Shown: positions 17,454 through 45,132 of the stretch, in pieces | Layout: each line of letters begins with the position of its first letter | Numbering within the stretch: position 1 is the stretch's first letter | The notes under the pieces: model-generated | The model's database searches: none | What the model was told of the DNA's origin: nothing | Seen by the model: only the letters and a program-made list of their open reading frames with translations | Virus record (IMG/VR): IMGVR_UViG_3300045988_175328 | Coordinates: 32,001 to 96,000 of that record | DNA length: 64,000 nucleotides | Source: a virus | Strand: one strand, 5' to 3' | Position numbers and translations under genes: made by a program

Positions 17454-20400
17454 ATGAATTACAATAATATAACTCCAGAAATGGTTATGTCTATGGATTT
17501 ACAAGAGCTCGTAAAACTTGATTACGCTAAGCTTCCTGAAAAGTCAAAGCTTGCGGTAATTAAAAAAGACCCAGTTATGTGGGCTAAAGCTTTTATTTCT
17601 TCTTATTCAATTGAGCAAGAAGAATATGTTCCATGGACAGCCAGATGGTATCAAGCTGAAATGCTTAGAGATAGGAGTTTACGTAAAGTATATCGATGTG
17701 GTCGTCGGTGTATTGCCGGCGATACATTAATATATGATCCTGAAACTAATAGCTCTATTTCAGCTAAAGAATTGTTCGATACCCGACAGGATGATTTCTT
17801 TACAGTGGCTTGCTTGGATCATGATTTCAAAACAGAGCAGATGCCTCTAGCTAAAATATATGAAAATGGTGTAAAACAAGTATATACAATAACGACAGAA
17901 TACGATAAACAAATTACTGTTACAGAAAATCATCCATTCTTAACACAAGTAGGATGGAAAGAATTAAAACATCTTCGTGTTGGAAATTTAATTGCAGTCA
18001 TTCAAGACGAAGGTATTTTATCAAAGTATGTCGATATCGACAAACAAACAATTGAATTAATACAAAAAGAATTAAATAAAGAAGTAAGTATCGAAAGTTA
18101 TTCAGATCTAATGCTTTATGCAGAAGAGGCTGGACTTGAAACAGTTTACGATATTCTTGATGGCGATTTGGCATGGGAACGAATTAAATCAATTCGATTA
18201 CGTGGCACAGAAATGACATATGATGTGTCCGTACCAGAATATCATAATTTTATTGCGAATGGATTTATCACTCACAATACTGGTAAAACAGAAACAATGG
18301 TTATCGAAGCATTGTACAATTGTTTCACTCGAGATAACTTTGTTCATATGTTTGTAACGCCATACGAAAACCAAGTTCGATTAATTTTCGATAATTTAAA
18401 ATCTAAGATCGATTCCTCGCCAAGGATTCGAACAGCACTCACTCGGTCGACACGGTCGCCGTACGTGATGGAATTTAACAATAAATCAAAAATTGTTGGA
18501 TTTACAACGGGCGCAAGTTCTGGTAGTAGTGCTGCCTCTATCCGCGGATGGCGTAGTGACTGGATCTCACTCGATTAAATAATACTATTGTAATAGTTTA
18601 AATAGTCCATTTATTTGGTAACAAGTAAATGTTGAGTTAAATCTCAAGAGTCTATCTAATTGCTGGGAACCCCTAAAGCTTAAAGTGCCTTTGGGCTGCG
18701 AAAGCAGAAATAAATCTTTAAGATGATATATGGTTAAATCCTAAGTATTGTAAACAATGGGCAATCAGCAGCCAAGTTAGTATTATAATTAATATTAAAA
18801 GGTTCAACGACTATCCTGAGAAGGAGTACTATGTAAGCGCATAGGAAATGGTAGAAATCCTACAAAGGATTAAGATATAGTCTATGCTTTATCGAAAGAT
18901 AAAGGTGCGAGTAATGTCGCCGGCTAGAATTAGCGAATCTAGTTGAATTAATATCAGGAAATGGATAATTAAATAATAGTTCATTTAAAACGCCGTTAAA
19001 CAACGAAACTCCTAAGAAGGACAACGATGTACCAAGCTCATTAGTTAATAATGAGTAGTGTTCAACGACTAGGGATGAAATAAGCTCCCCACGAAAGCGG
19101 TGAAACCTACTACAGTCTTATCGTCAAGTTTTATTCTGTAGTACGGAAGACATAGTCTAAACTGGACCAGAACTGACTGGTCGATGAAAATGAAGGTAAC
19201 TTCCAGAGCGCAAGATAAAGAGCTTGCGGTTAATAACAAATTGTATCTAGGTGAAGGTGATTTCGACACAGTATATGCTCTTTGTATGGAACGTGCTAGT
19301 ATCGGAATGACATGTTCATCGACACCAACCGGTAGACGATCTAAGTTTTATGACATTTGTACTCAGAAGAGCCTCGGGTTAAAAATGGCCCCAATATTAA
19401 GCAATTAATGATTGAAAACCTTTTGAAATGCTGGGACTTCCTTTAAGGAAAATCAGCAGCGAAGCTTCTTAAATTTAAGAAGAACGTTCAACGACTATCC
19501 CATTTGGGAGTAGGGTCAAGCGACTCGAAGCAGAAGGCGTCCTATTGGGACGAAGATATAGTCTGAGCTACATAGAGATATGTAGAAGGTTGCAAGTAGC
19601 GAATGCAATCGTAACAATACTGTTAAAGAGCATTACCATCCCGCACAGCATAGTCCTCTATATTCTCCAGAAATGGAGAAAGAATTCAGGGCGACATTCG
19701 ATAAAAATGCGTATGTACATGAAGTACTTGCAGAATTTGGTATCGAAGAAGCTGGCGTGTTTGATAAAGAAGCTCTCGAAAGAGCGACTCGCATGGACAA
19801 TTATGTCTATAATGACGAGATCAAACCGGTACATAATGAATTTAATTTGCGCTCAGCAAAGAAAATTCACCTTCTTCCAGAAGGACAAACTACATATAAG
19901 TATAACATGTATAGAACTATGGCAGTTGACTGGGATAAATCGCAGGCGCCAACTTCTATACTCGTCTTAGATTATGACCACGAATGGAATAAATTCCGGG
20001 TCATTAATCGAACTATGATCGAGCCATCAGATTTTCATTATGACTTGGCGGTAAAAAAGATCATTAATTTAAATGCTATATATAATCCTACTCATATCTA
20101 TATTGATAGGGGCGCAGGTAAGTAACTTGCCTCAATATAAAGAAAGCACATATATTTATATTGGATAATGCGGAATTAAGCGAGAACTCTAAGTTAAATA
20201 ATATGAGAACTCGAACCGAAGGCATTGCTAAGTAATGTCAGGGGCAGAGCATAGAAGTTGAAAAGATATAATACTTCCACGAGTCCGCATCACAGTTGTG
20301 CTATTATACTGTGAAAAAATATGCCGAACTTACAGGAAACTATAAGAACTACAAGATAAAAAACTTGTAGGATAACAAATTGGAGTATCAGATAGAAGCT

Positions 20401-34890: not shown

Positions 34891-37800
34891 GTGTATTCAT
34901 TTAAAAGCGAAATTTTAAAAGATTTACCAGGCATTTTTGTCGAAGTTAACTCTGCTCGTAAAAAGTTATACGACGACAGCCAATTCGGTAAAACAGATGC
35001 TGTATTGTGTATCGGTACTGCTTTTGACGGCCCTAATGGCTTCCCTGTACCAATCTACGATCCATCTTACGCTGTATATACATATGGCGATACTTATGAC
35101 CGCCGCACAAAACGAGAAGTTGACTTAGTTGCAACTATCTCTGACGCATATAATAATGGTTGTCGTACAATTTATGGCTTCCGTATCGGCGGCAAAGAAG
35201 CATATAAAGATTTTGCTTTCCGTGATGACAAAGCGATGTACCTTCGTGTAAAATCTACTTTCCCATCCAATAAAGCAAAACAAGTATACTTCACATTCGA
35301 TAATACTCCTGGTGAAGAAAAAATTACAATCTACAAACCAGTTTCCAAAGCAAGCTTGTATGAAAAATATAATGCATTGATCGACGAAACAACTGAAGTA
35401 ATCAAAGTTGATATCAACCTTGGTTTCTCTGGTGCTGGTTTTAATTCTAATACACAATTAACTGAAGTGTTACGTTATGTAAATCGTCATGTGTTAAATA
35501 ACGTTCTTGTTCTTTCTATCGTAAATGATGAAGGTCAAGATATCACACTTCGTAACGACTCTTATGATTTAGCCCTTGGGTCTTTATTCCCAGGAACTTA
35601 CTTCATTGGTCGTAGTCATTCTTTAGTTCCAATTCGTACTGAAGTTCGTACTCATATCATTAAAGGTGAAAACGCAATTAAACCTTATGATTCTTATGAT
35701 GGCGTATACTTCACTGCATTACGAATCAATACTGATGTATCTTCTCGTTACCCAATTTATGCAGGTTCCGATAAAGAAATGAACGAAGTATTGACTAAAG
35801 TTGGTATTAAAATGTTGTCTCATAACGACTATCTTGAATCTCCAATGCTTTCTAATTTAGCGTTCGCAGAAGACGAAGTCGATTATGAAGAAACAAACAT
35901 GACTAACTTCGAAAAATATGTTCGTCTTGGTTCTGGTTTTGCTATTACAGCAACAGCACATAAACGTACTAACACTAAAGGAGAAGAATTAGTTCCTCGT
36001 GTTAAAGAAACAGTAGCTAAAGATCCTCGTTATGTTGTTGGTATTAAAGATGGTGCATATAGCTTACTTCAAAATGCTGATATGCCTTATCGTGTACTAG
36101 GCGCTCAAATTGCTGCAGATACAGTAATTGGCGGCCGCTTACCAAAACCTAAAGATTTCTTACGTGCATTTGCTCAAGAAGTTTCTGTATTTAATTCTGT
36201 ACAAAATGGAGCTGTTGTTCCTAATACAGAATTAATTTCTATTACTCCTAAAGTAGATAGCATGGATACAAAAACATCTGCTCGTAAATTTAAATTTACA
36301 TTTAATAAAATTAAAGACGTAGAAAAAATTGTTCCATCCGCTATTTTCTCTAATGAAGTATTCACATATGTTCCAGTTGTAGATAATAAAGAAGCTTTAA
36401 TGCTTGACAAAAAAGTTTACAAAACTGGACAAGTATTCTTCATTAAAGATGAACAAAAAGTTGTAACAGTAACTGCTGAAAATAAACTTGAAGAGTTCGT
36501 CTCCAAAAATCAAAAATTCAAACACTTTGTTGCTGGCGACAAAATTATTGAATCTTTTGTATTAGGTGAAGATGTTCACTTTAAAGAAGTGGCAGATTTA
36601 TCTGGATTACAATATGATACAGACACTACAGGTATTTTAAAAGACGTTGATTCTACTGCAGGTTTATATTATGTAACTCGTGCAGCAGCTGCAACAGGAA
36701 CACCTATCAATGCAAAATATGTATTGATGACTGTAAATGGTGTATTAACTGTTGCGTCCTATGAAGATGGCAAAGTAACTCCTATCGGTAACTATGACAT
36801 CATCATGGATAAAGATACTCGTGATGATAAAGTAATCGCTTACATCGAAAACTTCGATAACGTAGAAAATAAAGTTGCAATCAGTGTTACTGATTATAAC
36901 TATCGTACATTATCTGAATTTGTAAGCGACTTAAAAGAAAATAAAACATTCTCTCGTTTATTTGATATCAAATTAACAGATAATGGCGTCATTGAAAAAG
37001 ATACTTTAATCGAAGATATCTTAGAACCAGTATTGAAAGATACAGAATTAGTATTGGGCGAGCTTCCTGCTCATAAAGTAATTGATTACGATTACTCTTT
37101 ACGTATTCCTTACCGTACTTCTGATAACTTTGCTCGCCAATTGGCACAACATTGTTTGAATACAGAAATGCGTACAGCTCATACTCATGGCCTTATCGGC
37201 GCAGAACGTATCTCTGATTATACATTATCTGGTGTTGCTCAAAAAGTTGAAGCATTAAAAACATTGTCTTTAGGCTTAAACTTAAAACGTGAAAACGGTC
37301 GAGCAGTTATCGATGATGACGGAATGCCAGTAAACATTGGTGGATCCATTTCCATGGTGTTCATGCAAAACAATGTACCAGTATTTAATTCTACATATTC
37401 TTATGTAGGTAATGGTGGTTCTGCATATGCTGGTTTAGTATCTGCATTAGATGTAGAACAATCCCCAACTAACCAAAAATTAAAAGCAACTCCATTGTTT
37501 GATTTAACAACGGCACAATTATCCGACTTAACAGCTCGCGGCATAGTAACAGCTAAAAATACATATACTCGTGGATATGTAATTACTGATGGTTGCACTA
37601 TGGCTGATAGCTCTGATCCTATGTCTCGTTTAAATACAGTTCGTATTATCGATGCTGTAGAACGAGTAATTCGTGAAGTTTGTGAACCATTCATTGGTAA
37701 ACAAAATAAAATTTCCGTACGTAATGCTATTCAAACTGGATTAACTTCTCGTTTGAATGAATTGAAAGGCAAATTATTGTACGATTATACATTCGATATT

Positions 37801-37926
37801 GTTAATGACGTAGAAGTGTTACAATACACTTACATCGATATCAACTATGTAATCATGCCGTACAACGAAATTCGTCAAATCAATAACTACATTCAAGTAC
37901 GTCAACCGGGCGCAATCGCTCATTAA
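34891..37926 (+). CDS. contractile tail sheath protein (long, 1011 aa)
   Basis: N-terminal LPGIFVEVNS...AVLCIGTAFDGPNG and C-terminal GIVTAKNTYTRGYVITDG...RLNTVRIIDAVERVIREVCEPFIGKQN..VRNAIQTGL match conserved sheath termini. The tube gene follows. Confidence 0.75.
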   Translation: MYSFKSEILKDLPGIFVEVNSARKKLYDDSQFGKTDAVLCIGTAFDGPNGFPVPIYDPSYAVYTYGDTYDRRTKREVDLVATISDAYNNGCRTIYGFRIGGKEAYKDFAFRDDKAMYLRVKSTFPSNKAKQVYFTFDNTPGEEKITIYKPVSKASLYEKYNALIDETTEVIKVDINLGFSGAGFNSNTQLTEVLRYVNRHVLNNVLVLSIVNDEGQDITLRNDSYDLALGSLFPGTYFIGRSHSLVPIRTEVRTHIIKGENAIKPYDSYDGVYFTALRINTDVSSRYPIYAGSDKEMNEVLTKVGIKMLSHNDYLESPMLSNLAFAEDEVDYEETNMTNFEKYVRLGSGFAITATAHKRTNTKGEELVPRVKETVAKDPRYVVGIKDGAYSLLQNADMPYRVLGAQIAADTVIGGRLPKPKDFLRAFAQEVSVFNSVQNGAVVPNTELISITPKVDSMDTKTSARKFKFTFNKIKDVEKIVPSAIFSNEVFTYVPVVDNKEALMLDKKVYKTGQVFFIKDEQKVVTVTAENKLEEFVSKNQKFKHFVAGDKIIESFVLGEDVHFKEVADLSGLQYDTDTTGILKDVDSTAGLYYVTRAAAATGTPINAKYVLMTVNGVLTVASYEDGKVTPIGNYDIIMDKDTRDDKVIAYIENFDNVENKVAISVTDYNYRTLSEFVSDLKENKTFSRLFDIKLTDNGVIEKDTLIEDILEPVLKDTELVLGELPAHKVIDYDYSLRIPYRTSDNFARQLAQHCLNTEMRTAHTHGLIGAERISDYTLSGVAQKVEALKTLSLGLNLKRENGRAVIDDDGMPVNIGGSISMVFMQNNVPVFNSTYSYVGNGGSAYAGLVSALDVEQSPTNQKLKATPLFDLTTAQLSDLTARGIVTAKNTYTRGYVITDGCTMADSSDPMSRLNTVRIIDAVERVIREVCEPFIGKQNKISVRNAIQTGLTSRLNELKGKLLYDYTFDIVNDVEVLQYTYIDINYVIMPYNEIRQINNYIQVRQPGAIAH

Positions 37927-38003: not shown

Positions 38004-38474
38004 ATGGAATTAGGTATCAATTTTAGATATGATAGCAAAAGGCGTGCGGCACTTATCTTAGTTTTTGATCGAGAGAGACTATTGCTTAAAGCAATTAGTG
38101 TTTTAAGAAAAAAACTACAGATTCCTTATCGAGAACTCGGAAAAACTAAAGATGGATTATTTTATGTTAAATATAAAGGAATGCTCGCTGCTTATATATA
38201 CTGGTGGATACATCGTATATTTAAAGCAGAATCTGCTAAAGAACACTATCCTTTATTTAAAGAAATATTCCTTCAAGATTTCGAGGGAGAATTGCCATAC
38301 GAAGAACTTCTTGCTTTAACTAATTCAGTCGAAACAGATGAACAAATAACGATCGGTGTTCCATCTGACTCGACGCTAACATGGTGTAAACGTATCCAGA
38401 GATGGCTACCGTTTAAAACTAGAATAGCATCGAGAACAGGAAAGAAAAAAGAGTATTTCCTGCTTTTAAAATAA
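38004..38474 (+). CDS. free-standing, N-terminally shorter paralog of the intron-encoded protein at 38883..39497
   Basis: ALILVFD..LLLKAISVLRKKL..YVKYKGMLAAYIYWWIHRIF and C-terminal WLPFKTRIASRTGKKKEYFLL align with [41 protein letters not shown] and [22 protein letters not shown]. Confidence 0.55.
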   Translation: MELGINFRYDSKRRAALILVFDRERLLLKAISVLRKKLQIPYRELGKTKDGLFYVKYKGMLAAYIYWWIHRIFKAESAKEHYPLFKEIFLQDFEGELPYEELLALTNSVETDEQITIGVPSDSTLTWCKRIQRWLPFKTRIASRTGKKKEYFLLLK

Positions 38475-38528: not shown

Positions 38529-41500
38529 ATGGCATATCAAAATGACACTAGTGTAACAAGTGCATCTCAATACACTCGTTCTTACACTACTTTCTCTGGC
38601 TGTGATATCGTTGCAACTTTCGGATCCGAAGTTGTAGCTGAAGTACAAGGTATTACAGTTTCTATCAACCGTGAGAAAGCTCCGGTCAACAAACATTTTT
38701 GATATATGCTGAATCAAAACCTATAGGCCGGAGTAAAACTTTGCTAAAATCGGTGAAAGAGCACTAACACCGAGGATAAGAATATGATATAATAATATTG
38801 TGTTCAATGTCCGTAGAGACTTGAGACACTATTCTCTTAATGATGTATCCATTCCCAGCTAGGGAAATAACGGAGGTTTTTAATGAATGAAGTACTTGCT
38901 TGGTATTTAGGACTTAGTTACCAAGAAGATCAGTATCCAAGAAGTGTTGCCAGTGATTTACATAGTTATTTTATTCGCGGATTAGTTGAACAACTTAATC
39001 CATTTTATTATCGTGAAAAACGATCACTACTTATTTTGGATCTCGTATATCATTCAAAAGATGTTTTAGAATCGATAAAGAAAATTTTCAAAGAAAAATT
39101 ATTAATCGATTCTAAAGTTAAAGAGCTCGATAATAAATATATTTTAAATGTTTCTGGAAAGAATGCTAAAATTATTTTCTGGTGGTTATATCATGAAGAT
39201 TTTAGTACAAGTTATTCAGAAGAAATAGTAAATATATTAACAGATAAAGAAATAACTGATTTAAATAATATGAGCGACGACGATTCCTTACTTGAATTAA
39301 TCGGCGCTTATTATTCTGAAGATAATCATATTTCTTTTAATTGTCCTTATTATGAATCATTAGATCTAGCTAAAAAAGTAAGAAATTTACTTTCGTTTAA
39401 AACACAACCAGTGACTCATACAAAAGGAAAAAGAAAACATTATCAGCTTTATATTCCAAAAAACCAATCATTAATACGCAAAGCATCGAATGAGTAATCA
39501 TTCGTAAAGATATAGTCCACTTAATTGGGTTATACATTTGGTTCAGCTGAGCCTCGTTCTATCTCGAGAGGTAATAATAACTCTTTTGCTTCTCCTTTGC
39601 AGTAATGCAACGCATAATTAAACTCTGTGATTAAATGTGCTATACATACTTACAACTTAAGTCATGAGTAAGTAGCACGTATAGTCCACATATCTGGTAA
39701 CAGGTATGTGCCAAGTGGTAACACTCGGAGATTCACTGAATTGCTGGAAAGTCCTAAAGCTTGAATAACTACAACATAATATCGTACAAGTACGATATAA
39801 GCGTGAATGTTGCGAAAGCAGAAAAAATATTCAAGATGGTATATGGTTAAATCCTAAGTACTGTAGCAATGGACAATCAGCAGCCAAGCCCGTAAGGGAA
39901 GGTTCAACGACTATCCTGAGAAGGAGTAGGGCTCAAGCGAGTGGGTGAAAATCCCTTAAATCGAAGTAGTGAAGGTCCTTTAGAAAAGGATTAAGATATA
40001 GTCTGTGCTTTATCGAAAGATAAAGGTGCGCGCAGTGGCGCCGGCTAAGAGTAGCGATCTTAGTTGAACGAACAACTCTCATATAAACCCTACGGTTTTA
40101 TATATTGAAATTAACCTCCTAAAGTACTATAATAATAGTATATAGTTACGAAAGGAGGTGCCTCGTGAATAAAAGTTTTAAAGTAGAAATTTATCCAGAT
40201 CAAGATCAGGAAATTTTAATTGAGAAAACATTTGGCTGCGTAAGATATACTTACAATTTTATGTTAAATTTAAAACAACTTCTGTATAAAGAATTTGGAA
40301 TATCAATAACTTTAAATAGGATATCCAAAGTTCTTACGATGCTAAAAAAACTTAAGCCATGGCTTGCAGAAGTTGATAAATGTGCATTGCAATATGTTCT
40401 CAAAGATCTTTTTTTTGGATATGAAAAATTCTTTAATGGCGGAGGATTTCCTGAATTTAAAACTAAACGAGGGAAGAATTCTTATCGTACAAATAGTCGT
40501 TTACATTTAGATCAAGATAAAAAGATGATTAAGATCCCTAAAGTCGGCTGGATTAAGTTTAGAGATAAAAGTAAATTTATTGGTCTTAAAAAGATTTACA
40601 ATATCACTATTTCTAAAAGTGCTAGTGGAAAATATTTTGCCAGTATTTCAGCCGAAGTCGAAATCGAAGCTTTGCCTAAAACCAAAGTAAACTGCGGTAT
40701 CGACTTAGGATTAAAAGATTTTTGTATCTTGAACGATGGAACAGTATTTGAGAATCCTAAATTTTTGGCAAGTAAAGAAAAACGACTCAAAAGGTTACAA
40801 AAGTCTTTAAATCGAAAGAAACTAGGATCTAAGAATTATTTTAAAGTTAAAGCTAAAATAGTTAGACTTCATGAATATATAGCAAATTGTCGAAAAGATT
40901 ATCTGCACAAAATATCTATATTCTTAGTTAGAACTTATGATATTATTTGTGTTGAAACTCTAAAAGTTAAGAATATGCTTAAGAATCATAAGTTAGCTAA
41001 AGCTATTATTGACGTTAGTTGGTATGAATTTTGTCGACAGTTAGAATATAAATGTTTATGGTATGGAAAGAAATTTGTACAGATTGGGACTTATTTCGCA
41101 TCATCACAAACATGCTCTAATTGTGGCTTCAAGAATATAGAAGTTAAGAATCTTGATGTTCGAGAATGGAATTGTCCAGAATGTGGAGTTCATCACGATC
41201 GAGATATTAACGCAGCTATAAATATTCTCAACGAAGGCTTAAAATTAGCTTAATTTCAATATATAGAACCGCAGGGCATGCGGGGATAGCCTACTGTCTT
41301 AGTATAAGACGTATAGTGAATTTATATTTACTATACGCAACTATTGGGTAGGAACCTCGTCACTTTAAGTGGTGAGAGGATGTCAGATGCTGGAAACCCC
41401 TTAGAGCCTTTGGTACCAAAGTGTGACAATCTAAAGGATTGGGCAATCAGCAGGCAGCTTTATCTATTAGATATTGCGCCTCAACGACTATCCGTAAGGA

Positions 41501-43145
41501 GTACACCATAATAGCCGGTGGAAGCGCAGAGCTCCCTAGAATAATATAGGTATTGCTATATTCTCCTTTTTGTATTATAATAAATATATAAGGAGGTCTT
41601 AAATATGGCGCAATACAATTATAATTTTGATATTTTAGAAAAAGAATCACCTGAAAAATATTATTTTCTTGGCTTTATCGCAGCAGATGGAGCATTAACA
41701 AATGGCGGAATTGTTTTTGAACTAAACAAGAGAGATGGATATATGGTAAAGAAATTAAATGATTACATATGTCCTGAAAAAGAAGTTAAGTTTAGAGAAG
41801 AAACAAATTCTTGTCGAGCAACATTTTATAATCTTGAAATGACAAAGAAACTAAAAAAATATTTTTCAATGACAAGCAATAGAAAAACCGAAGAGATTAG
41901 ATTCCCAGAAGTACCAGATGAATATCTTCGAGATTTTATTCGTGGGATCATCGATGGTGATGGAACTATCGATACGACTAAAGGATACAAAGGAAATAAA
42001 ATTTATATTGGTGCTCGACTTCGAATCTTAGGTAATGAAATTTTTCTAAAAGAATTAAATGAGAAAACAAAATTATTATATCCACATAATACAAATGCTG
42101 TAAACAGAAAAGGTAAGGAAAATATACATATTATAACTTATAACTTTAAAACAGCGCGCGAATTATTGAAAATAATATATTATGACGGATGCCTATGTTT
42201 AAAACGAAAATTCGATCGTTCTAGGGATGAAGATATAGTCTCTACATTAGTGAGAGCTAAATGATAATCATTCTCAAAAAAAGAGGGATCGCCGGCACTA
42301 TTGTATTCACACTATTTGATCGTGATGCATTAGTCGACGCATTGGCTATTCGCGCAGCAAAAGCTGCGTATTTCCAACGTATTGGTGGTGATATCAATTA
42401 CCAACCATACACAATTACTGAATGGGATACTAAATTGACAGATATGGTAGTTAATACTTTATCTTCCAGTAACAGTTCCCAAATTGCATCCAGTAATCCA
42501 TTTAAACTTACTCAAAAAGTAGCTGTTCAATCTACTCCTAAATACTCCGATTATTCTTAATATAGTCCGTATGTTTAGTAATAAGCATATGTTAAACATA
42601 AATGTTTAAGGTCTCATCGAATTGCTGAAAACCCGTAAAGCTTAAAACGCTACAGCATAATTTTGAAAAACAAATAAGTGCGATAGTAACGAAAGTAAAA
42701 AAAGTTTTAAGATAGCGTATGGTTAAATCCTAAGCGCCACAACAATTGGCAATCAGCAGCGAAGCTCCAAATAGGAGAACGTTCAACGACTAGAGCAAGA
42801 TGCTCGTACACTCAAGCGAGTGGAAGTGGTGAGGGCCCATTTGATGGGTCAAGATATAGTCTATGCCTTAGTGAAAATTAAGGGAGCAACAATTTGTTGC
42901 CAAATAATAGTAGCGATATTATTTGAATATAACAGGAAATTCCGCCATTTGACATTACTTTATCTTTTGCAAATGAGTATGGTCAATCGGCAGTAATGGT
43001 TATCTACGGCGTAGAGATCTTAAATGAAGCTTCTAGTTTCTCTGTAGATTCTACTACGACTGATAAAGCATGTACTTACATTGCTCGTTCTGTAGATTAC
43101 TTGCAACCAGTAGAAAACAAATACTTATTGAATAACAATTACTAA
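38529..43145 (+). CDS. tail tube protein, split into four exons by four self-splicing elements
   Basis: Exons are 38529..38686, 39530..39572, about 42279..42551 (alternative starts 42264 or 42288) and 42936..43145, totalling 684 nt (227 aa). The joined product is [67 protein letters not shown]... It is colinear with the N-terminal domain of the paralog at 43429 (..[61 protein letters not shown]). It lies directly after the sheath gene. No SD sits close to the ATG. Confidence 0.75.
38687..39529 (+). mobile_element. group I intron A of the tube gene (carries ORF 38883..39497)
   Basis: P1: exon CTCCGGT pairs 7/7 with GCCGGAG (38727-38733), with a U-G wobble at the splice U (38686). R-like TGTTCAATGTCCGTAGAGACT (38802) and S AAAGATATAGTCC (39506). 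Ends ..AATTGGG| only 11 nt after S. The ORF sits between R and S. Confidence 0.6.
38883..39497 (+). CDS. intron-encoded protein (LAGLIDADG-like or maturase-like; acidic catalytic motif not evident)
   Basis: RBS ACGGAGG. The only motif-like segments are WYLGLSY and YFIRGLVEQ. It has a paralog at 38004..38474. Confidence 0.55.
   Translation: MNEVLAWYLGLSYQEDQYPRSVASDLHSYFIRGLVEQLNPFYYREKRSLLILDLVYHSKDVLESIKKIFKEKLLIDSKVKELDNKYILNVSGKNAKIIFWWLYHEDFSTSYSEEIVNILTDKEITDLNNMSDDDSLLELIGAYYSEDNHISFNCPYYESLDLAKKVRNLLSFKTQPVTHTKGKRKHYQLYIPKNQSLIRKASNE
40105..40133 (+). promoter_or_regulatory. sigma70-type promoter for tnpB (TTGAAA-17 nt-TATAAT)
   Basis: TTGAAA 40105-40110, 17-nt spacer, TATAAT 40128-40133, 32 nt upstream of the GTG start. 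Confidence 0.45.
40165..41253 (+). CDS. tnpB: TnpB (IS200/IS605-family OrfB, RuvC-type RNA-guided nuclease)
   Basis: GTG start after AAAGGAGG. Ruv[12 protein letters not shown], Ruv[14 protein letters not shown], zinc finger CSNCG..CPECG, Ruv[16 protein letters not shown]. Confidence 0.85.
41230..41386 (+). ncRNA. candidate TnpB omega RNA scaffold / transposon right end (5' boundary approximate)
   Basis: A 133-nt non-coding tail follows tnpB, with hairpins CCGCAGGGCATGCGGGG and CCTCGTCAC-TTTAA-GTGGTGAGAGG just before the proposed element end at 41386. The guide would be read from 41387 onward (ATGCTGGAAACCCC..). Confidence 0.4.
41605..42264 (+). CDS. LAGLIDADG homing endonuclease (two-motif, monomeric type), encoded in intron C
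   Basis: RBS TAAGGAGG. Motifs [13 protein letters not shown] and [13 protein letters not shown]. The 3' end of the ORF overlaps the intron S element. Confidence 0.8.
   Translation: MAQYNYNFDILEKESPEKYYFLGFIAADGALTNGGIVFELNKRDGYMVKKLNDYICPEKEVKFREETNSCRATFYNLEMTKKLKKYFSMTSNRKTEEIRFPEVPDEYLRDFIRGIIDGDGTIDTTKGYKGNKIYIGARLRILGNEIFLKELNEKTKLLYPHNTNAVNRKGKENIHIITYNFKTARELLKIIYYDGCLCLKRKFDRSRDEDIVSTLVRAK
42552..42935 (+). mobile_element. group I intron, ORF-less member of the IStron-related family (copy 3)
   Basis: Inserted after TCCGAT (42551). P1 is GAT|TAT paired with ATAGTC, with a U-G wobble at the splice U. P ATTGCTGAAAACCC (42621), Q AATCAGCAGCG (42750), R GTTCAACGACTAG (42781), S AAGATATAGTCT (42851). 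Ends TATAACAG| (42935). Joining gives [15 protein letters not shown], matching the paralog's YLMD-ELPNFDITLSF. Confidence 0.75.
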
Positions 43146-43152
43146 TAAGTTA

Positions 43153-43195: not shown

Positions 43196-43432
43196 TTGGA
43201 AAATACGAATCAAGTCTTTCTGTATCTAAACAAAGTTTTAGATGATTATATTAAAGAAGCTGTTCAACGAAGAGTTTCTTTAGACGAAGCTAATCTTGAG
43301 ATGAAAGAAGTTTGTCTTAAAGAATTAGAGCAAAGATCAATAGAGCTTAAACCACATATAAAAACACTTGTTGAAAATAGAGTTAAACAATATCTTAAAG
43401 TCTACCACTTAAAAGTGAGGTATTTAAAATGA
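43196..43432 (+). CDS. hypothetical protein
   Basis: TTG start 7 nt after GAGGT; ATGA coupling to the next gene. Confidence 0.45.
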   Translation: MENTNQVFLYLNKVLDDYIKEAVQRRVSLDEANLEMKEVCLKELEQRSIELKPHIKTLVENRVKQYLKVYHLKVRYLK

Positions 43433-45132
43433 CACAAGAAAAAGAGATTGTTCAAACTTCTAAATACACAAGAACATACAATTCATATAGTGGATGCGAT
43501 ATTGTAGCTTCTATTAATATTTCAATACCAGGGCAAGAACCTATTCATCATGTGTTCGGCAGCATTCAAACACTTTCTTATAGCATCCATCAGGAGAAAA
43601 CTCCAGTTAGAGCAATCGGGAATGTAAATGCAATTACGTATGTAGATGGGCCCAGAACAATTGCTGGCACTATTGTATTTACAGTTTTAGATAAGCATGT
43701 AATATATGAAATTTTTGAAGAATTAACAAAGAAGGGGCAATATATCAATGAACATTATTTAATGGACGAGCTCCCTAATTTTGACATTACTTTATCTTTT
43801 GCAAATGAATATGGCCATAATAGTTCTATCAGTATATATAATTGCACTATTATGGATGAAGGACAAGTCATGTCTGTTAATGATATTTTGACAGAAAATA
43901 CATATCATTATTATGCGACTGATATTGACTACATGACTGAATCTGAAAGCTATTGGACAATTAATCGTCAAAAGATTATTGAATCAAATCCTTGGCTTAG
44001 TCCTCAGAACTTTAAACCGCAACCACAGGTTCCGGCAAAAGAAATAGACGATTGCCCATTAGAAAAAATTAGTCGATATAAGTATCGAACATATGCTGAA
44101 TATGTTACTGCTTTAAATAAGGCATACGAAAAACATCGAGATGAATTAGTTGAAGCGCAGAAGACTGATCGTATTGTAGCTTGTCGTCATAAGTATCATA
44201 CTCTTGTCGAAGATGCTAAAAAATATTATAAAATTGGCGATATGCCATATGGATTAAATAGAATTCCTAAACGAAGACCAGCTGTTGTCAATAAAGATTA
44301 CGATAAATTCAGAACACAAATTCGTAAAACTTCAAGAGCTGTTCCTGATTATGACAACTGTAGAGTTAGAAAACATACTGGTCCAATCCAGGCGCCAGAT
44401 TTTAATATAAGAACATCTCGTACTTATAATAGAATTATAATTCCAGATTTAAATATGCCGCGATTAAGATATAATTCATATCGTGACTATCCAGAATTTG
44501 AGAGTCGAGAACGATATGAATCATCTAGAAGCTATCCTGAATTTAGATCTAGGAATTATAAAAAATTCTCGACACGAGGATACCCTATATATAAAACTAA
44601 TTATGCTAAGCATTATAGAGAAGATCCTCCAGAATTTAATTCTAGACTTCGACCTCAAAAATATAAAGTTAATGTCCCGGAATACGAGACTCATAAAAGA
44701 AGAAAAGTCGATATTATGGTCCCAGAATTTGAATCAAGAAAGGCTCCTGAAAGAAAAAGAGAAGGATATCCTGAGTATACAACTCAATATCCAGAGCATA
44801 GAAAAATTGTTCCTCCAGAATTTCCAAGAGTTAGGAATTTAAGAGATAGAGTCCATGATTATGTTCCTGATGAAATTATCGATAGAAACCATGACCATGA
44901 CAATAAACCAATTTTTAAAAATAGAAAACGAGAAAAAATTATCGAGAAAGAAAAAGAAATACATAAAAAGCCAGAAATTAAAGAAAAAAAACGTTTAGAT
45001 TTTGTTCTTAAGAAAAAAGATTCTAGTATGGTGATTGAAGAAGTCAAGAAAGAAGAAACTAAGCCTAAAGACAAATTTAGAATTCGTTCTGTTATCGAAA
45101 AGAACGCAACACCAGATCGAGGTGATAGCTAA
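43429..45132 (+). CDS. tail tube paralog with a long basic C-terminal repeat extension
   Basis: The N-terminal ~200 aa are colinear with the spliced tube protein. The C-terminal region (about nt 44446-44870) carries about 8 copies of a (Y/V/P)PE(F/Y)xxR motif, then a KEKE-rich tail. Confidence 0.65.
   Translation: MTQEKEIVQTSKYTRTYNSYSGCDIVASINISIPGQEPIHHVFGSIQTLSYSIHQEKTPVRAIGNVNAITYVDGPRTIAGTIVFTVLDKHVIYEIFEELTKKGQYINEHYLMDELPNFDITLSFANEYGHNSSISIYNCTIMDEGQVMSVNDILTENTYHYYATDIDYMTESESYWTINRQKIIESNPWLSPQNFKPQPQVPAKEIDDCPLEKISRYKYRTYAEYVTALNKAYEKHRDELVEAQKTDRIVACRHKYHTLVEDAKKYYKIGDMPYGLNRIPKRRPAVVNKDYDKFRTQIRKTSRAVPDYDNCRVRKHTGPIQAPDFNIRTSRTYNRIIIPDLNMPRLRYNSYRDYPEFESRERYESSRSYPEFRSRNYKKFSTRGYPIYKTNYAKHYREDPPEFNSRLRPQKYKVNVPEYETHKRRKVDIMVPEFESRKAPERKREGYPEYTTQYPEHRKIVPPEFPRVRNLRDRVHDYVPDEIIDRNHDHDNKPIFKNRKREKIIEKEKEIHKKPEIKEKKRLDFVLKKKDSSMVIEEVKKEETKPKDKFRIRSVIEKNATPDRGDS

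What the first reader, a model, noticed from the sequence alone, without database searches (positions are those of the whole stretch)
39573..42278. Intron-within-intron (twintron-like) arrangement
Seen: the 5' 59 nt of intron C (P1 guide GCTTCTC, P2 TTGCA-GTAA-TGCAA) are separated from its P4 element ATGCTGGAAACCCC (41387) by the complete 1755-nt tnpB element. Deleting 39632-41386 restores a contiguous group I layout: P1-P2-(J2/3 ..CTGTGAT)-P4-Q-R-[LAGLIDADG ORF]-S. Inference: the IStron inserted into the J2/3-P3 region of a resident intron. The outer ribozyme can probably fold only after the inner element has spliced out, or the outer one is dead and another route is used.
Basis: inference. 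Interest (0 to 1): 0.8.

Follow-up and report, generated by a model that had tools for sequence, protein, structure and literature searches.

The report
Transposon-intron nested inside a phage intron
In the tail-tube gene of a roughly 227-kb phage, a self-splicing intron that carries a homing-endonuclease gene has been invaded, inside its catalytic core, by a second self-splicing intron fused to a transposon with an RNA-guided nuclease. The gene can probably be expressed only if the inner element splices out first.

Summary
Window 39632-41386 (1755 nt) is a clean insertion with no target duplication. The predicted empty junction CTGTGAT|ATGCTGGAAAC occurs in 29 related phage contigs, always at the same position of the same intron in the same gene.

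- **Inner element.** It is a Group A IStron: an IA2 ribozyme (Rfam 82.6 bits), an intact ISDra2-like tnpB, insertion after GTGAT, and a ...GTCAG end. Related copies (67-80% identity) sit in protein-coding genes of sister phages.
- **Outer intron.** It spans 39573-42278, is a bona fide group I intron, and keeps every core helix once the insert is removed. It carries a LAGLIDADG ORF in P8.
- **Correction.** The insertion splits J3/4, not J2/3-P3.
- **Not an artefact.** The arrangement is essentially identical (99.97-100%) in the ENA assemblies compared, and eight carry it in all.
- **Guide.** The TnpB guide would match the uninterrupted intron of all 29 relatives.

Ordered splicing is inferred, not shown. 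One oddity is that the outer intron ends in A rather than the canonical G, as do 14 of 27 relatives.

I found no published IStron-in-intron or phage group I twintron. I rate it a new variant of known kinds.

The parts
39530..39572 (+). Exon 2 of the tail-tube-like gene ([14 protein letters not shown]). Its last 7 nt, GAGAGGT (39566-39572), form the exon strand of outer P1.
   Evidence: Protein alignment with intron-less homologs. In-silico splice. Tail tube annotation of homologs in Bacillus jumbo phages.
39573..39631 (+). Outer group I intron, 5' segment (59 nt). It holds the P10 strand CTCTTTT (39581-39587), the P1 guide GCTTCTC (39588-39594), P2 (39597-39610), the P3 5' strand CTCTGTG (39623-39629), and the first two J3/4 nucleotides A39630 and U39631.
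   Evidence: 90-91% identical to the same segment of uninterrupted relatives, with alignments ending exactly at 39631. Helix assignment from the Rfam alignment of L006 and pair counts.
39632..41386 (+). Inner element: a Group A IStron (IA2 group I ribozyme plus an IS200/IS605 tnpB module). It is 1755 nt, inserted after GTGAT, ends in GTCAG, and has no target-site duplication.
   Evidence: Absent from 29 relatives at this exact point. Related copies of 67-80% identity occur elsewhere, all after NYGAT and ending in GTCAG. These end rules are those published for Group A IStrons (PMC4227781).
39632..39686 (+). Inner P1 with a long hairpin extension. GAU(39629-39631)|UA pairs with UAGUC (39682-39686), placing U39631 opposite G39684. 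The extension GUGCUA.../...UAGCAC is probably the transposon left-end hairpin.
   Evidence: Read from the sequence. The same GAU|UA...UAGUC arrangement and a covarying extension occur in five related IStrons. The ORF-less relatives, intron D and the intron at 18605, have the short P1 without the extension.
39684..40025 (+). Inner ribozyme core, P2 to P9.
   Evidence: RF00028 at 82.6 bits, E 2e-20, full-length model match.
40105..40133 (+). Sigma-70-like promoter match (TTGAAA-17-TATAAT, 11 of 12) upstream of tnpB and its Shine-Dalgarno sequence.
   Evidence: This is a consensus match only; the total count in the region is not above the shuffles.
40165..41253 (+). tnpB, 362 aa, an RNA-guided nuclease of the ISDra2 type.
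   Evidence: Pfam HTH_OrfB_IS605, OrfB_IS605 and Cas12f1-like_TNB. Full-length match to ISDra2 TnpB structures 8exa and 8h1j, E 4e-97, with acidic residues at the three RuvC positions in the printed alignment.
41254..41386 (+). Transposon right end: the predicted omega-RNA scaffold and the inner 3' splice site (terminal G41386). The last 18 nt, GTGGTGAGAGGATGTCAG (41369-41386), are conserved across divergent copies.
   Evidence: Stable fold, z = -2.95. The 18-mer is found at the ends of 13 related IStron copies in IMG/VR, plus two GC-rich contigs with no other similarity. The role of the terminal right-end nucleotides in splicing and guide function comes from PMC13521648.
41387..41402 (+). Predicted TnpB guide segment, the 16 nt that follow the right end (ATGCTGGAAACCCCTT). 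It is at the same time the third J3/4 nucleotide plus P4 and P5 of the outer intron.
   Evidence: Inference from the IS605 omega-RNA architecture (PMC10690162, PMC13565253). The 20 nt after GTGAT are identical in all 29 uninterrupted relatives.
41387..42278 (+). Outer group I intron, 3' segment. It holds P4 (41388-41393 with 41447-41452), P5 and P6, the P7 5' strand (41486-41491), P7.1 and P7.2, the P3 3' strand CGCAGAG (41525-41531), P8 (41534-41540 with 42220-42226), the P7 3' strand (42235-42240), and P9 (42247-42260). The last nucleotide is A42278.
   Evidence: Sub-threshold RF00028 pieces at 41388-41490 and 42137-42262. 84% identity over 1017 nt to relative L001. All core helices pair in 23 unique relatives, with compensatory changes in P2, P7.2, P8 and P9.
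41605..42264 (+). Double-motif LAGLIDADG-type ORF (219 aa) in the P8 loop of the outer intron. Its 3' end overlaps P8', P7' and P9.
   Evidence: Motifs FLGFIAADG and [10 protein letters not shown] are visible in the translation. Pfam LAGLIDADG_3 gives E 7e-4, below the cut-off. PDB 2dch, a putative homing endonuclease, gives E 0.03. Some relatives have this ORF and some have a bare P8 tetraloop.
42279..42551 (+). Exon 3 ([10 protein letters not shown]...KYSD). Its first 7 nt, AAAAGAG, pair with 39581-39587 to form outer P10.
   Evidence: P10 covaries with the Arg codon in relatives: CCGCGUUU/AAACGCGG and CCACGCUU/AAACGUGG.

Best explanation
This is a group I twintron created when a Group A IStron transposed into the catalytic core of a resident group I intron. 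The IStron is an IA2 ribozyme fused to an IS200/IS605 tnpB/omega-RNA module. The resident intron carries a LAGLIDADG ORF and sits in the tail-tube gene of a 0305phi8-36-like jumbo phage.

Shown:
- The insertion is exact (39632-41386) and is the derived state.
- Both ribozymes have complete cores.
- tnpB is intact.

Inferred mechanism:
1. The pre-mRNA is transcribed through three introns (B, C and D).
2. The inner ribozyme is transcribed about 2 kb before the outer core is complete. It recognises only the 3-nt GAU (the transposon-adjacent motif) through its own P1, and G41386 as its terminal G. It excises itself and religates A-U to A, restoring the 3-nt J3/4 junction.
3. Only then can the outer P3-J3/4-P4 scaffold form. 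The 951-nt outer intron then splices exon 2 (39572) to exon 3 (42279).

In parallel, TnpB loaded with an omega-RNA whose guide is the flanking ATGCTGGAAACCCCTT would cut GTGAT-adjacent uninterrupted copies of the outer intron in co-infecting relatives. Repair from the IStron-bearing genome would copy the IStron in, which is RNA-guided homing into another intron.
For: Insertion and direction of change:
- The empty junction is present in 29 related contigs, at the same gene position.
- BLAST breakpoints fall at 39631 and around 41381-41387.

Outer intron:
- The uninterrupted ORF-less homolog scores 62.9 bits against RF00028. That alignment places CUCUGUG in P3, AUA in J3/4 and UGCUGG in P4.
- P1, P2, P3, P4, P5, P6, P7, P7.1 and P7.2 are 100% paired and P9 is 97% paired in 23 unique sequences, including the window with the insert removed. 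P8 keeps its first three pairs; its distal part is misaligned. P2, P7.2, P8 and P9 show compensatory changes.
- P10 covaries with synonymous Arg codons.

Inner element:
- RF00028 at 82.6 bits.
- TnpB matches ISDra2 TnpB at E 4e-97 over its full length.
- Related IStrons in sister phages are all inserted after NYGAT, end in GTCAG, and leave coding flanks in frame. This matches the published Group A rules (PMC4227781, PMC13565253).

Reality and persistence:
- TnpB, the LAGLIDADG ORF and their context are 99.97-100% identical in the other ENA assemblies compared, and eight carry the arrangement in all, from two accession series.

Other support:
- The spliced product is a 227-aa protein colinear with intron-less homologs.
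- The guide target is identical in all 29 relatives.
- IStron 3' splice-site choice stays faithful across varied 3' flanks, and the RNA can end up either as a spliced-out intron or as the guide RNA (PMC13521648, PMC10690162).
Against: - No RNA data exist, so neither the splicing order nor any splicing has been observed.
- The outer intron ends in A42278 instead of the terminal G regarded as universal. This is also true of 14 of 27 uninterrupted relatives, so it is unrelated to the insertion, but its splicing chemistry is unexplained.
- The inner element has no recognisable P10 with its 3' flank, and only 3 bp of exon pairing in P1.
- The motif here is GTGAT rather than the consensus TTGAT.
- No tnpA lies in the 64-kb window.
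- The arrangement is known from one phage lineage only. There are 0 hits in IMG/VR and the JGI metagenomes, and several supporting contigs have only about 3.6-4x coverage according to their names.
Confidence: 0.8

Rival explanations
1. The locus is dead. The IStron insertion, the missing terminal G, or both have inactivated the outer ribozyme. This gene copy makes no protein, and the phage is defective or relies on the downstream paralog (43429-45132), whose N-terminal domain is homologous.
For: The outer intron ends in A42278. A paralogous N-terminal domain is encoded 280 nt downstream. No RNA evidence exists.
Against: - All core helices of both ribozymes are intact, and tnpB and the LAGLIDADG ORF are open.
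- The terminal-A state is shared by 14 uninterrupted relatives in large phage contigs, so it does not mark decay caused by the insertion.
- The same sequence recurs, essentially without change, in eight assemblies.
- The four exons still assemble into a full-length protein with conserved motifs.
Confidence: 0.1
2. The composite is removed as one unit, a 'zombie' twintron. The outer ribozyme folds around the 1755-nt insert, whose ends are held together by the inner fold, and splices without prior excision of the inner element.
For: Fungal and plant organelle twintrons that splice as a single unit have been described (PMC8393795, PMC7049729). Large ORF-bearing insertions are tolerated in peripheral loops of group I introns.
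Against: The insert is not in a loop. It splits the 3-nt J3/4 junction, which is invariant (AUA) in all 27 relatives and, from established group I structure, forms the core triple-helix scaffold. The inner element also retains a complete, high-scoring ribozyme and canonical U/G splice-site nucleotides, which would be unnecessary under this model.
Confidence: 0.06
3. Rescue happens at the DNA level. Seamless TnpA-mediated excision of the IStron from a fraction of replicating genomes restores an ordinary intron, and those copies provide the mRNA.
For: IS200/IS605 excision is precise. tnpA-bearing IStrons exist in sister phages.
Against: No tnpA lies in the window. TnpB would re-cut the empty sites. 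No empty-site sibling with the identical LAGLIDADG ORF is on record. The ribozyme is conserved, which argues for RNA-level removal.
Confidence: 0.03
4. The nesting is an assembly chimera between a phage and an IStron-bearing genome.
For: The window comes from a metagenome assembly, and repeats of related introns occur within the genome.
Against: Both junctions are reproduced at 99.97-100% identity in independent assemblies from two ENA accession series. The breakpoints coincide to the base with the IStron end rules.
Confidence: 0.01

Closest known systems
Group A IStrons (CdISt1 of Clostridioides difficile and relatives; Tourasse et al. 2014, PMC4227781)
   Same: The inner element has an IA2 group I ribozyme at the 5' end, followed by an IS200/IS605 tnpB. 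It is inserted right after a TTGAT-like pentanucleotide, has a TCAG 3' end, and its splice sites coincide with the transposon ends. It is a tnpB-only copy, alongside tnpA+tnpB copies in relatives.
   Different: Known copies interrupt protein-coding genes of bacteria. The phage IStrons listed in that survey are Group B (IS607-type, C. botulinum phages). This copy lives in a jumbo phage and interrupts another ribozyme rather than an exon. The closest TnpB relatives are phage-borne (68-80% aa), while representative bacterial genomes give mostly 34-50% identity over the full length.
Group I-in-group I twintrons of fungal mitochondria, and the Didymium twin-ribozyme intron (reviewed in PMC8393795)
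   Same: One group I ribozyme is nested inside another, a homing-endonuclease ORF is present, and splicing of the outer intron is expected to depend on the inner one.
   Different: Those are organellar or nuclear eukaryotic cases. Here the host is a bacteriophage, the inner intron is a DNA transposon chimera with an RNA-guided nuclease, and the insertion is in a core junction (J3/4).
mS1247 of Chaetomium thermophilum (a group II intron inside the HEG ORF of a group I intron; PMC4801052)
   Same: A nested self-splicing element whose removal is needed to restore a function of the outer element. Three selfish modules share one locus.
   Different: There the inner element interrupts the ORF, not the ribozyme core, and it is a group II intron.
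Group II twintrons with demonstrated sequential splicing (the Euglena psbF twintron and the Trichodesmium twintron, both cited in PMC8393795)
   Same: The inner intron splits a catalytic domain of the outer one, so ordered splicing is required.
   Different: A different ribozyme class and mobility mechanism, with no nuclease-guide module.
Multi-intron structural genes of phages with HEG-bearing group I introns (Twort- and SPO1-type; general statement in PMC4227781 and PMC3984707)
   Same: Several IA2-type introns sit in one essential structural gene, some with homing-endonuclease ORFs.
   Different: Those introns lie side by side and are never reported nested.

Membership tests
Group A IStron | Group I (IA2) ribozyme at the 5' end of the element | tested here: met
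   RF00028 at 82.6 bits for 39684-40025. P7.1- and P7.2-type hairpins are visible between P7 and P3' in that alignment.
Group A IStron | IS200/IS605-type ORF B (tnpB) downstream of the ribozyme | tested here: met
   Pfam OrfB_IS605, TNB and HTH. E 4e-97 to ISDra2 TnpB.
Group A IStron | Inserted immediately 3' of a TTGAT-like pentanucleotide, with a TCAG 3' terminus and no target duplication | tested here: met
   GTGAT|...GTCAG| here. Relatives use TTGAT, ATGAT, ACGAT and TCGAT. The boundaries are unambiguous against the empty sites.
Group A IStron | Self-splicing that restores the interrupted sequence | not testable with these tools
   U39631 and G41386 are canonical, and P1 GAU|UA/UAGUC is present. 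There are no RNA data.
Group I intron (outer element) | Conserved core P3-P9 with P1 and P10 defining the splice sites | tested here: met
   The uninterrupted homolog L006 scores 62.9 bits, above the gathering score of 50. The window's halves score 26 and 30 bits separately. The helices are paired and show compensatory changes. P10 covaries with the exon.
Group I intron (outer element) | U at the end of the 5' exon and G as the last intron nucleotide | tested here: inconclusive
   U39572 pairs with G39588, which is met. The last intron nucleotide is A42278, as in 14 of 27 relatives; 13 have G.
Twintron (intron within intron) | A complete intron lies inside another intron rather than beside it | tested here: met
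   Outer intron sequence flanks the insert on both sides and is contiguous in 29 relatives.
Twintron (intron within intron) | Sequential splicing, inner before outer | not testable with these tools
   Inferred from the position in J3/4 and the order of transcription.
TnpB/omega-RNA homing system (IS605 type) | Intact RuvC nuclease, and a right-end-derived guide RNA whose guide is the 3' flank next to the motif | tested here: inconclusive
   The protein is full length with D/E/D at the aligned positions. The right end is structured (z = -2.95) with a conserved terminal 18-mer. The target plus GTGAT is present in 29 relatives. The guide RNA itself and cleavage have not been observed.
LAGLIDADG homing endonuclease | Two LAGLIDADG motifs and a family profile match | tested here: inconclusive
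   Both motifs are visible ([19 protein letters not shown]). Pfam gives E 7e-4, below the cut-off. PDB 2dch gives E 0.03.

The most novel reading that the evidence does not exclude
This is a three-tier nested selfish element and a natural 'intron-into-intron' gene drive. An IStron has colonised the invariant catalytic core (J3/4-P4-P5) of a homing-endonuclease-bearing group I intron shared by a clade of jumbo phages. Its TnpB guide is thereby programmed against that core in every rival phage, a target that cannot easily mutate away because the ribozyme needs it. Tail-tube production now depends on two ordered ribozyme reactions that compete with guide-RNA maturation. It would be the first group I twintron in a virus or prokaryote system.
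Probability: 0.45. Interest if true: 0.8.

Novelty: new variant of a known kind. Interest (0 to 1): 0.68.

Why it matters
- **A natural order-of-splicing test.** IStrons are currently studied as a conflict between splicing and guide-RNA production. Here an IStron must splice accurately out of another ribozyme's core junction for an essential virion protein to be made, so the dependence of one ribozyme on the other can be tested directly.
- **IStron splicing needs little context.** Only GAU upstream is used, which would explain how these elements can land almost anywhere, including inside another intron.
- **A constrained homing target.** The RNA-guided nuclease is aimed at a sequence held constant by ribozyme function. 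That suggests how such elements could spread through phage populations by homing during co-infection.
- **A compact experimental system.** The locus is about 2.7 kb and could be used for engineered sequential-splicing switches.

Tried and rejected
- **Wrong 3' splice site.** I first placed the outer 3' splice site at 42287|42288, which gives a canonical U and G. Intron-less homologs contain KRG, and P10 covaries with those codons, so I rejected it.
- **Other copies of the twintron.** Both junctions gave 0 hits in IMG/VR and in the JGI metagenomes.
- **Other IStrons landing just before a P4.** A gapped pattern (GGATGTCAGN{0,8}TGCTGRRAA) gave 35 hits, all chance matches without IStron context.
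- **Rfam on whole loci.** At the gathering threshold it missed the outer-type intron and most IStron ribozymes, because the filters are stricter on long input. A local search recovered the outer type.
- **Nucleotide search of cultured phages.** It found only short intron-core matches.
- **Genome scan for a bacterial donor or host of the IStron.** Identity was mostly 34-50% over the full length, so no host could be inferred.
- **A compensating change for the terminal A.** No alignment column in the ribozyme core tracks the terminal A versus G.
- **An IStron-less sibling with the identical LAGLIDADG ORF.** None is on record.
- **Twintron review.** The Hafez & Hausner 2015 review (PMC4829276) is not held.

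Full report
**Setting.** The window has 33% G+C and encodes a long run of same-strand phage genes. It includes a 1011-aa tail sheath gene (34891-37926; Pfam sheath C-terminal domain at E 2.5e-4, below the family's cut-off).

Downstream lies a gene split into four exons: 38529-38686, 39530-39572, 42279-42551 and 42936-43148. Joined in silico, they give a 227-aa protein. That protein is colinear with more than a thousand intron-less homologs. It is 40-50% identical to proteins annotated as tail tube or virion structural protein in the 0305phi8-36 group of Bacillus jumbo phages.

The three interruptions are intron B (38687-39529), intron C (39573-42278, the finding) and intron D (42552-42935).

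**Checking the observation.**
- Rfam finds a full-length group I ribozyme at 39684-40025 (82.6 bits). It also finds two sub-threshold pieces of a second ribozyme: 41388-41490 (P4-P6, 26 bits) and 42137-42262 (P7'-P9, 30 bits).
- The ORF at 40165-41253 is a TnpB.
- The ORF at 41605-42264 has two LAGLIDADG motifs, with weak profile support.

The decisive test was the 18-mer that would exist if 39632-41386 were deleted, CTGTGAT|ATGCTGGAAAC. It occurs exactly in 29 IMG/VR contigs, many of them 120-236 kb. In each it sits about 50 nt after the same exon sequence ...TTCGAGAGGT and is followed by the same P4-P9 sequence. BLAST of these relatives against the window stops at 39631 and resumes around 41381-41387.

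The boundaries are unambiguous, because no base is shared between the insert ends and the flanks. There is no target duplication. The 1755-nt insertion is therefore real, exact, and the derived state.

**The outer intron.** An ORF-less, uninterrupted relative (L006 4690-4924) scores 62.9 bits against RF00028. That alignment assigns CUCUGUG to the P3 5' strand, AUA to J3/4 and UGCUGG to P4. The IStron therefore sits between the second and third nucleotide of J3/4, not in J2/3-P3.

I aligned 28 cores (23 unique), including the window with the insert and the P8 ORF removed.
- P1-P7, P7.1 and P7.2 are 100% paired, and P9 is 97% paired.
- P2, P7.2, P8 and P9 carry compensatory changes.
- The window copy shows no sign of decay.

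The 3' splice site was initially unclear. Intron-less homologs all read SRG-KRG-IAGT. The segment just 5' of the P1 guide (CUCUUUU) pairs with AAAAGAG at 42279. In relatives this pairing changes to CCGCGUUU/AAACGCGG or CCACGCUU/AAACGUGG as the Arg codon changes synonymously.

**An unexplained point.** The last intron nucleotide is A42278, not G. The window looks like the L009-type tail CTCAAAG|AAAAGAGG with the G deleted. The A-run is identical in all assemblies. Fourteen of 27 uninterrupted relatives also end in A and 13 end in G. No column in the ribozyme core tracks the difference.

Terminal G is regarded as universal for group I introns (own knowledge; also stated in PMC13521648). I cannot explain this. 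It is independent of the IStron.

**The inner element.** It meets the published definition of a Group A IStron (PMC4227781, PMC13565253):
- an IA2-type ribozyme at the 5' end;
- an IS200/IS605 tnpB;
- insertion right after a TTGAT-like pentamer (GTGAT here);
- a ...GTCAG end;
- splice sites that coincide with the transposon ends.

The TnpB aligns end to end with ISDra2 TnpB structures (E 4e-97), with acidic residues at the three RuvC positions.

The right-end 18-mer GTGGTGAGAGGATGTCAG recovers 15 more loci in IMG/VR. Thirteen of them are related IStrons of 67-80% nucleotide identity. The copies whose left end is captured all follow TTGAT, ATGAT, ACGAT or TCGAT, and all copies end in GTCAG. Where both flanks are visible, they join into an open reading frame, for example a ClpP gene. 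Some copies carry a Y1 tnpA as well.

Another, more distant IStron sits in exon 3 of this same gene in L023 and L008, after GGTGAT.

The closest TnpB relatives are phage-borne. Representative bacterial genomes give mostly 34-50% identity over the full length.

Introns D and 18605-18904 of the window are ORF-less relatives of the IStron ribozyme, and both follow GAT^T.

**Inner splice-site logic.** P1 is GAU|UA paired with UAGUC (39682-39686), with U39631 opposite G39684. It is extended by a covarying hairpin that the ORF-less relatives lack. This hairpin is probably the transposon left-end hairpin.

Only three 'exon' nucleotides are used, namely the motif itself. The 3' flanks of different copies are unrelated, so there is no conserved P10. 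This fits published data that IStron 3' splice-site choice stays faithful across varied 3' exons and is set by the last roughly 18 nt of the right end (PMC13521648). Such an element should be able to splice from inside another intron.

**Is it real and viable?** The identical TnpB, the identical LAGLIDADG ORF and the same neighbours occur in eight ENA assemblies: ERZ27276323 (a 227-kb contig), one similar large contig that was not shown, and ERZ784244, ERZ784216, ERZ784456, ERZ784211, ERZ784449 and ERZ783531. The five compared with the window are 99.97-100% identical to it. No sibling with the same LAGLIDADG ORF but without the IStron is on record. An assembly chimera is excluded, and a lineage that persists across samples is unlikely to lack its tail-tube protein.

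**Most likely mechanism (inferred).** During transcription the inner core is finished about 2.2 kb before the outer P7' strand is made, so the inner ribozyme can act first. Its excision religates AU to A and recreates J3/4, which in group I structure forms the base-triple scaffold with P4-P6. Only then can the outer core fold and join 39572 to 42279. Any other combination of splice sites leaves extra sequence or shifts the frame.

The predicted omega-RNA (right end 41254-41386, z = -2.95) would carry the guide ATGCTGGAAACCCCTT. That is the outer intron's own J3/4-P4-P5. This sequence, preceded by GTGAT, is identical in all 29 uninterrupted relatives. TnpB could therefore cut rival phages' introns during co-infection and drive copying of the IStron, as proposed for TnpB-only IStrons (PMC13565253).

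As shown for other IStrons (PMC10690162, PMC13521648), maturation of the guide and splicing should compete on the same transcript. A promoter-like site at 40105-40133 might provide a separate transcript (weak evidence).

**Comparison with what is known.** Group I-in-group I twintrons and twin-ribozyme introns are known in fungal mitochondria and myxomycete rDNA. Group II twintrons with ordered splicing are known in Euglena and cyanobacteria (PMC8393795). IStrons are known in Firmicutes, Fusobacteria and C. botulinum phages (PMC4227781).

Full-text searches found no paper describing an IStron inside an intron or a group I twintron in a phage. I therefore class it as a new variant of known kinds. 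It is not a new mechanism class.

**Verdict.** The splicing order and TnpB homing are well-motivated inferences that need RNA and cleavage experiments.

Noticed in passing
window 42278; L001-L029 at the equivalent position: The outer intron's last nucleotide is A in the window and in 14 of 27 relatives, and G in 13. The 3' splice site itself is fixed by protein conservation and a covarying P10. No compensating change was found in the ribozyme core.
   Followed up: partly
window 42552-42935 and 18605-18904: Two ORF-less group I introns are close relatives of the IStron ribozyme, and both follow ...GAT^T. They end roughly where the IS module begins in the IStron (about 40075-40090). This suggests the IStron arose from this phage intron family, or the reverse.
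   Followed up: partly
L023 6985-8564 (also L008): A different IStron (TnpB 45% identical) interrupts exon 3 of the same tail-tube gene after GGTGAT in sister phages that have the outer intron uninterrupted.
   Followed up: partly
L032 10953-13157 (also L034, L039, L040, L041, L042): Autonomous-looking IStrons carry a 144-aa Y1 tnpA plus tnpB inside phage genes, for example ClpP. One is on the same 236-kb contig as the uninterrupted outer intron L001. No tnpA lies in the 64-kb window.
   Followed up: partly
window 38004-38474: A free-standing 156-aa ORF between the sheath and tube genes is a paralog (26% identity, E 2e-10) of the ORF inside intron B (38883-39497).
   Followed up: partly
window 38687-39529: Intron B has a canonical U and G and an AGATATAGTCC P7'-like motif, but gave no Rfam group I hit even at E<=10. 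Its ORF (204 aa) has no Pfam match, whereas the homologous intron in L006 has an ORF with clear LAGLIDADG motifs.
   Followed up: no
L035 and L043: The terminal 18-mer of the IStron right end (GTGGTGAGAGGATGTCAG) also occurs in GC-rich contigs that show no other similarity. This hints at a widely conserved 3' module of the IS605 guide RNA.
   Followed up: no
window 40105-40133 and 41553-41581: Strong sigma-70-like hexamer pairs followed by Shine-Dalgarno sequences sit just upstream of tnpB and of the LAGLIDADG ORF. The intron ORFs may therefore have their own transcripts.
   Followed up: no
L036 6163-6223: An Rfam RAGATH-18 hit (67.9 bits) lies directly downstream of a distant TnpB-like ORF (29% identity) in a sister phage contig.
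   Followed up: no
window 43429-45132: The next gene (567 aa) begins with a domain paralogous to the tail-tube-like protein, followed by a long repetitive, charged extension.
   Followed up: no
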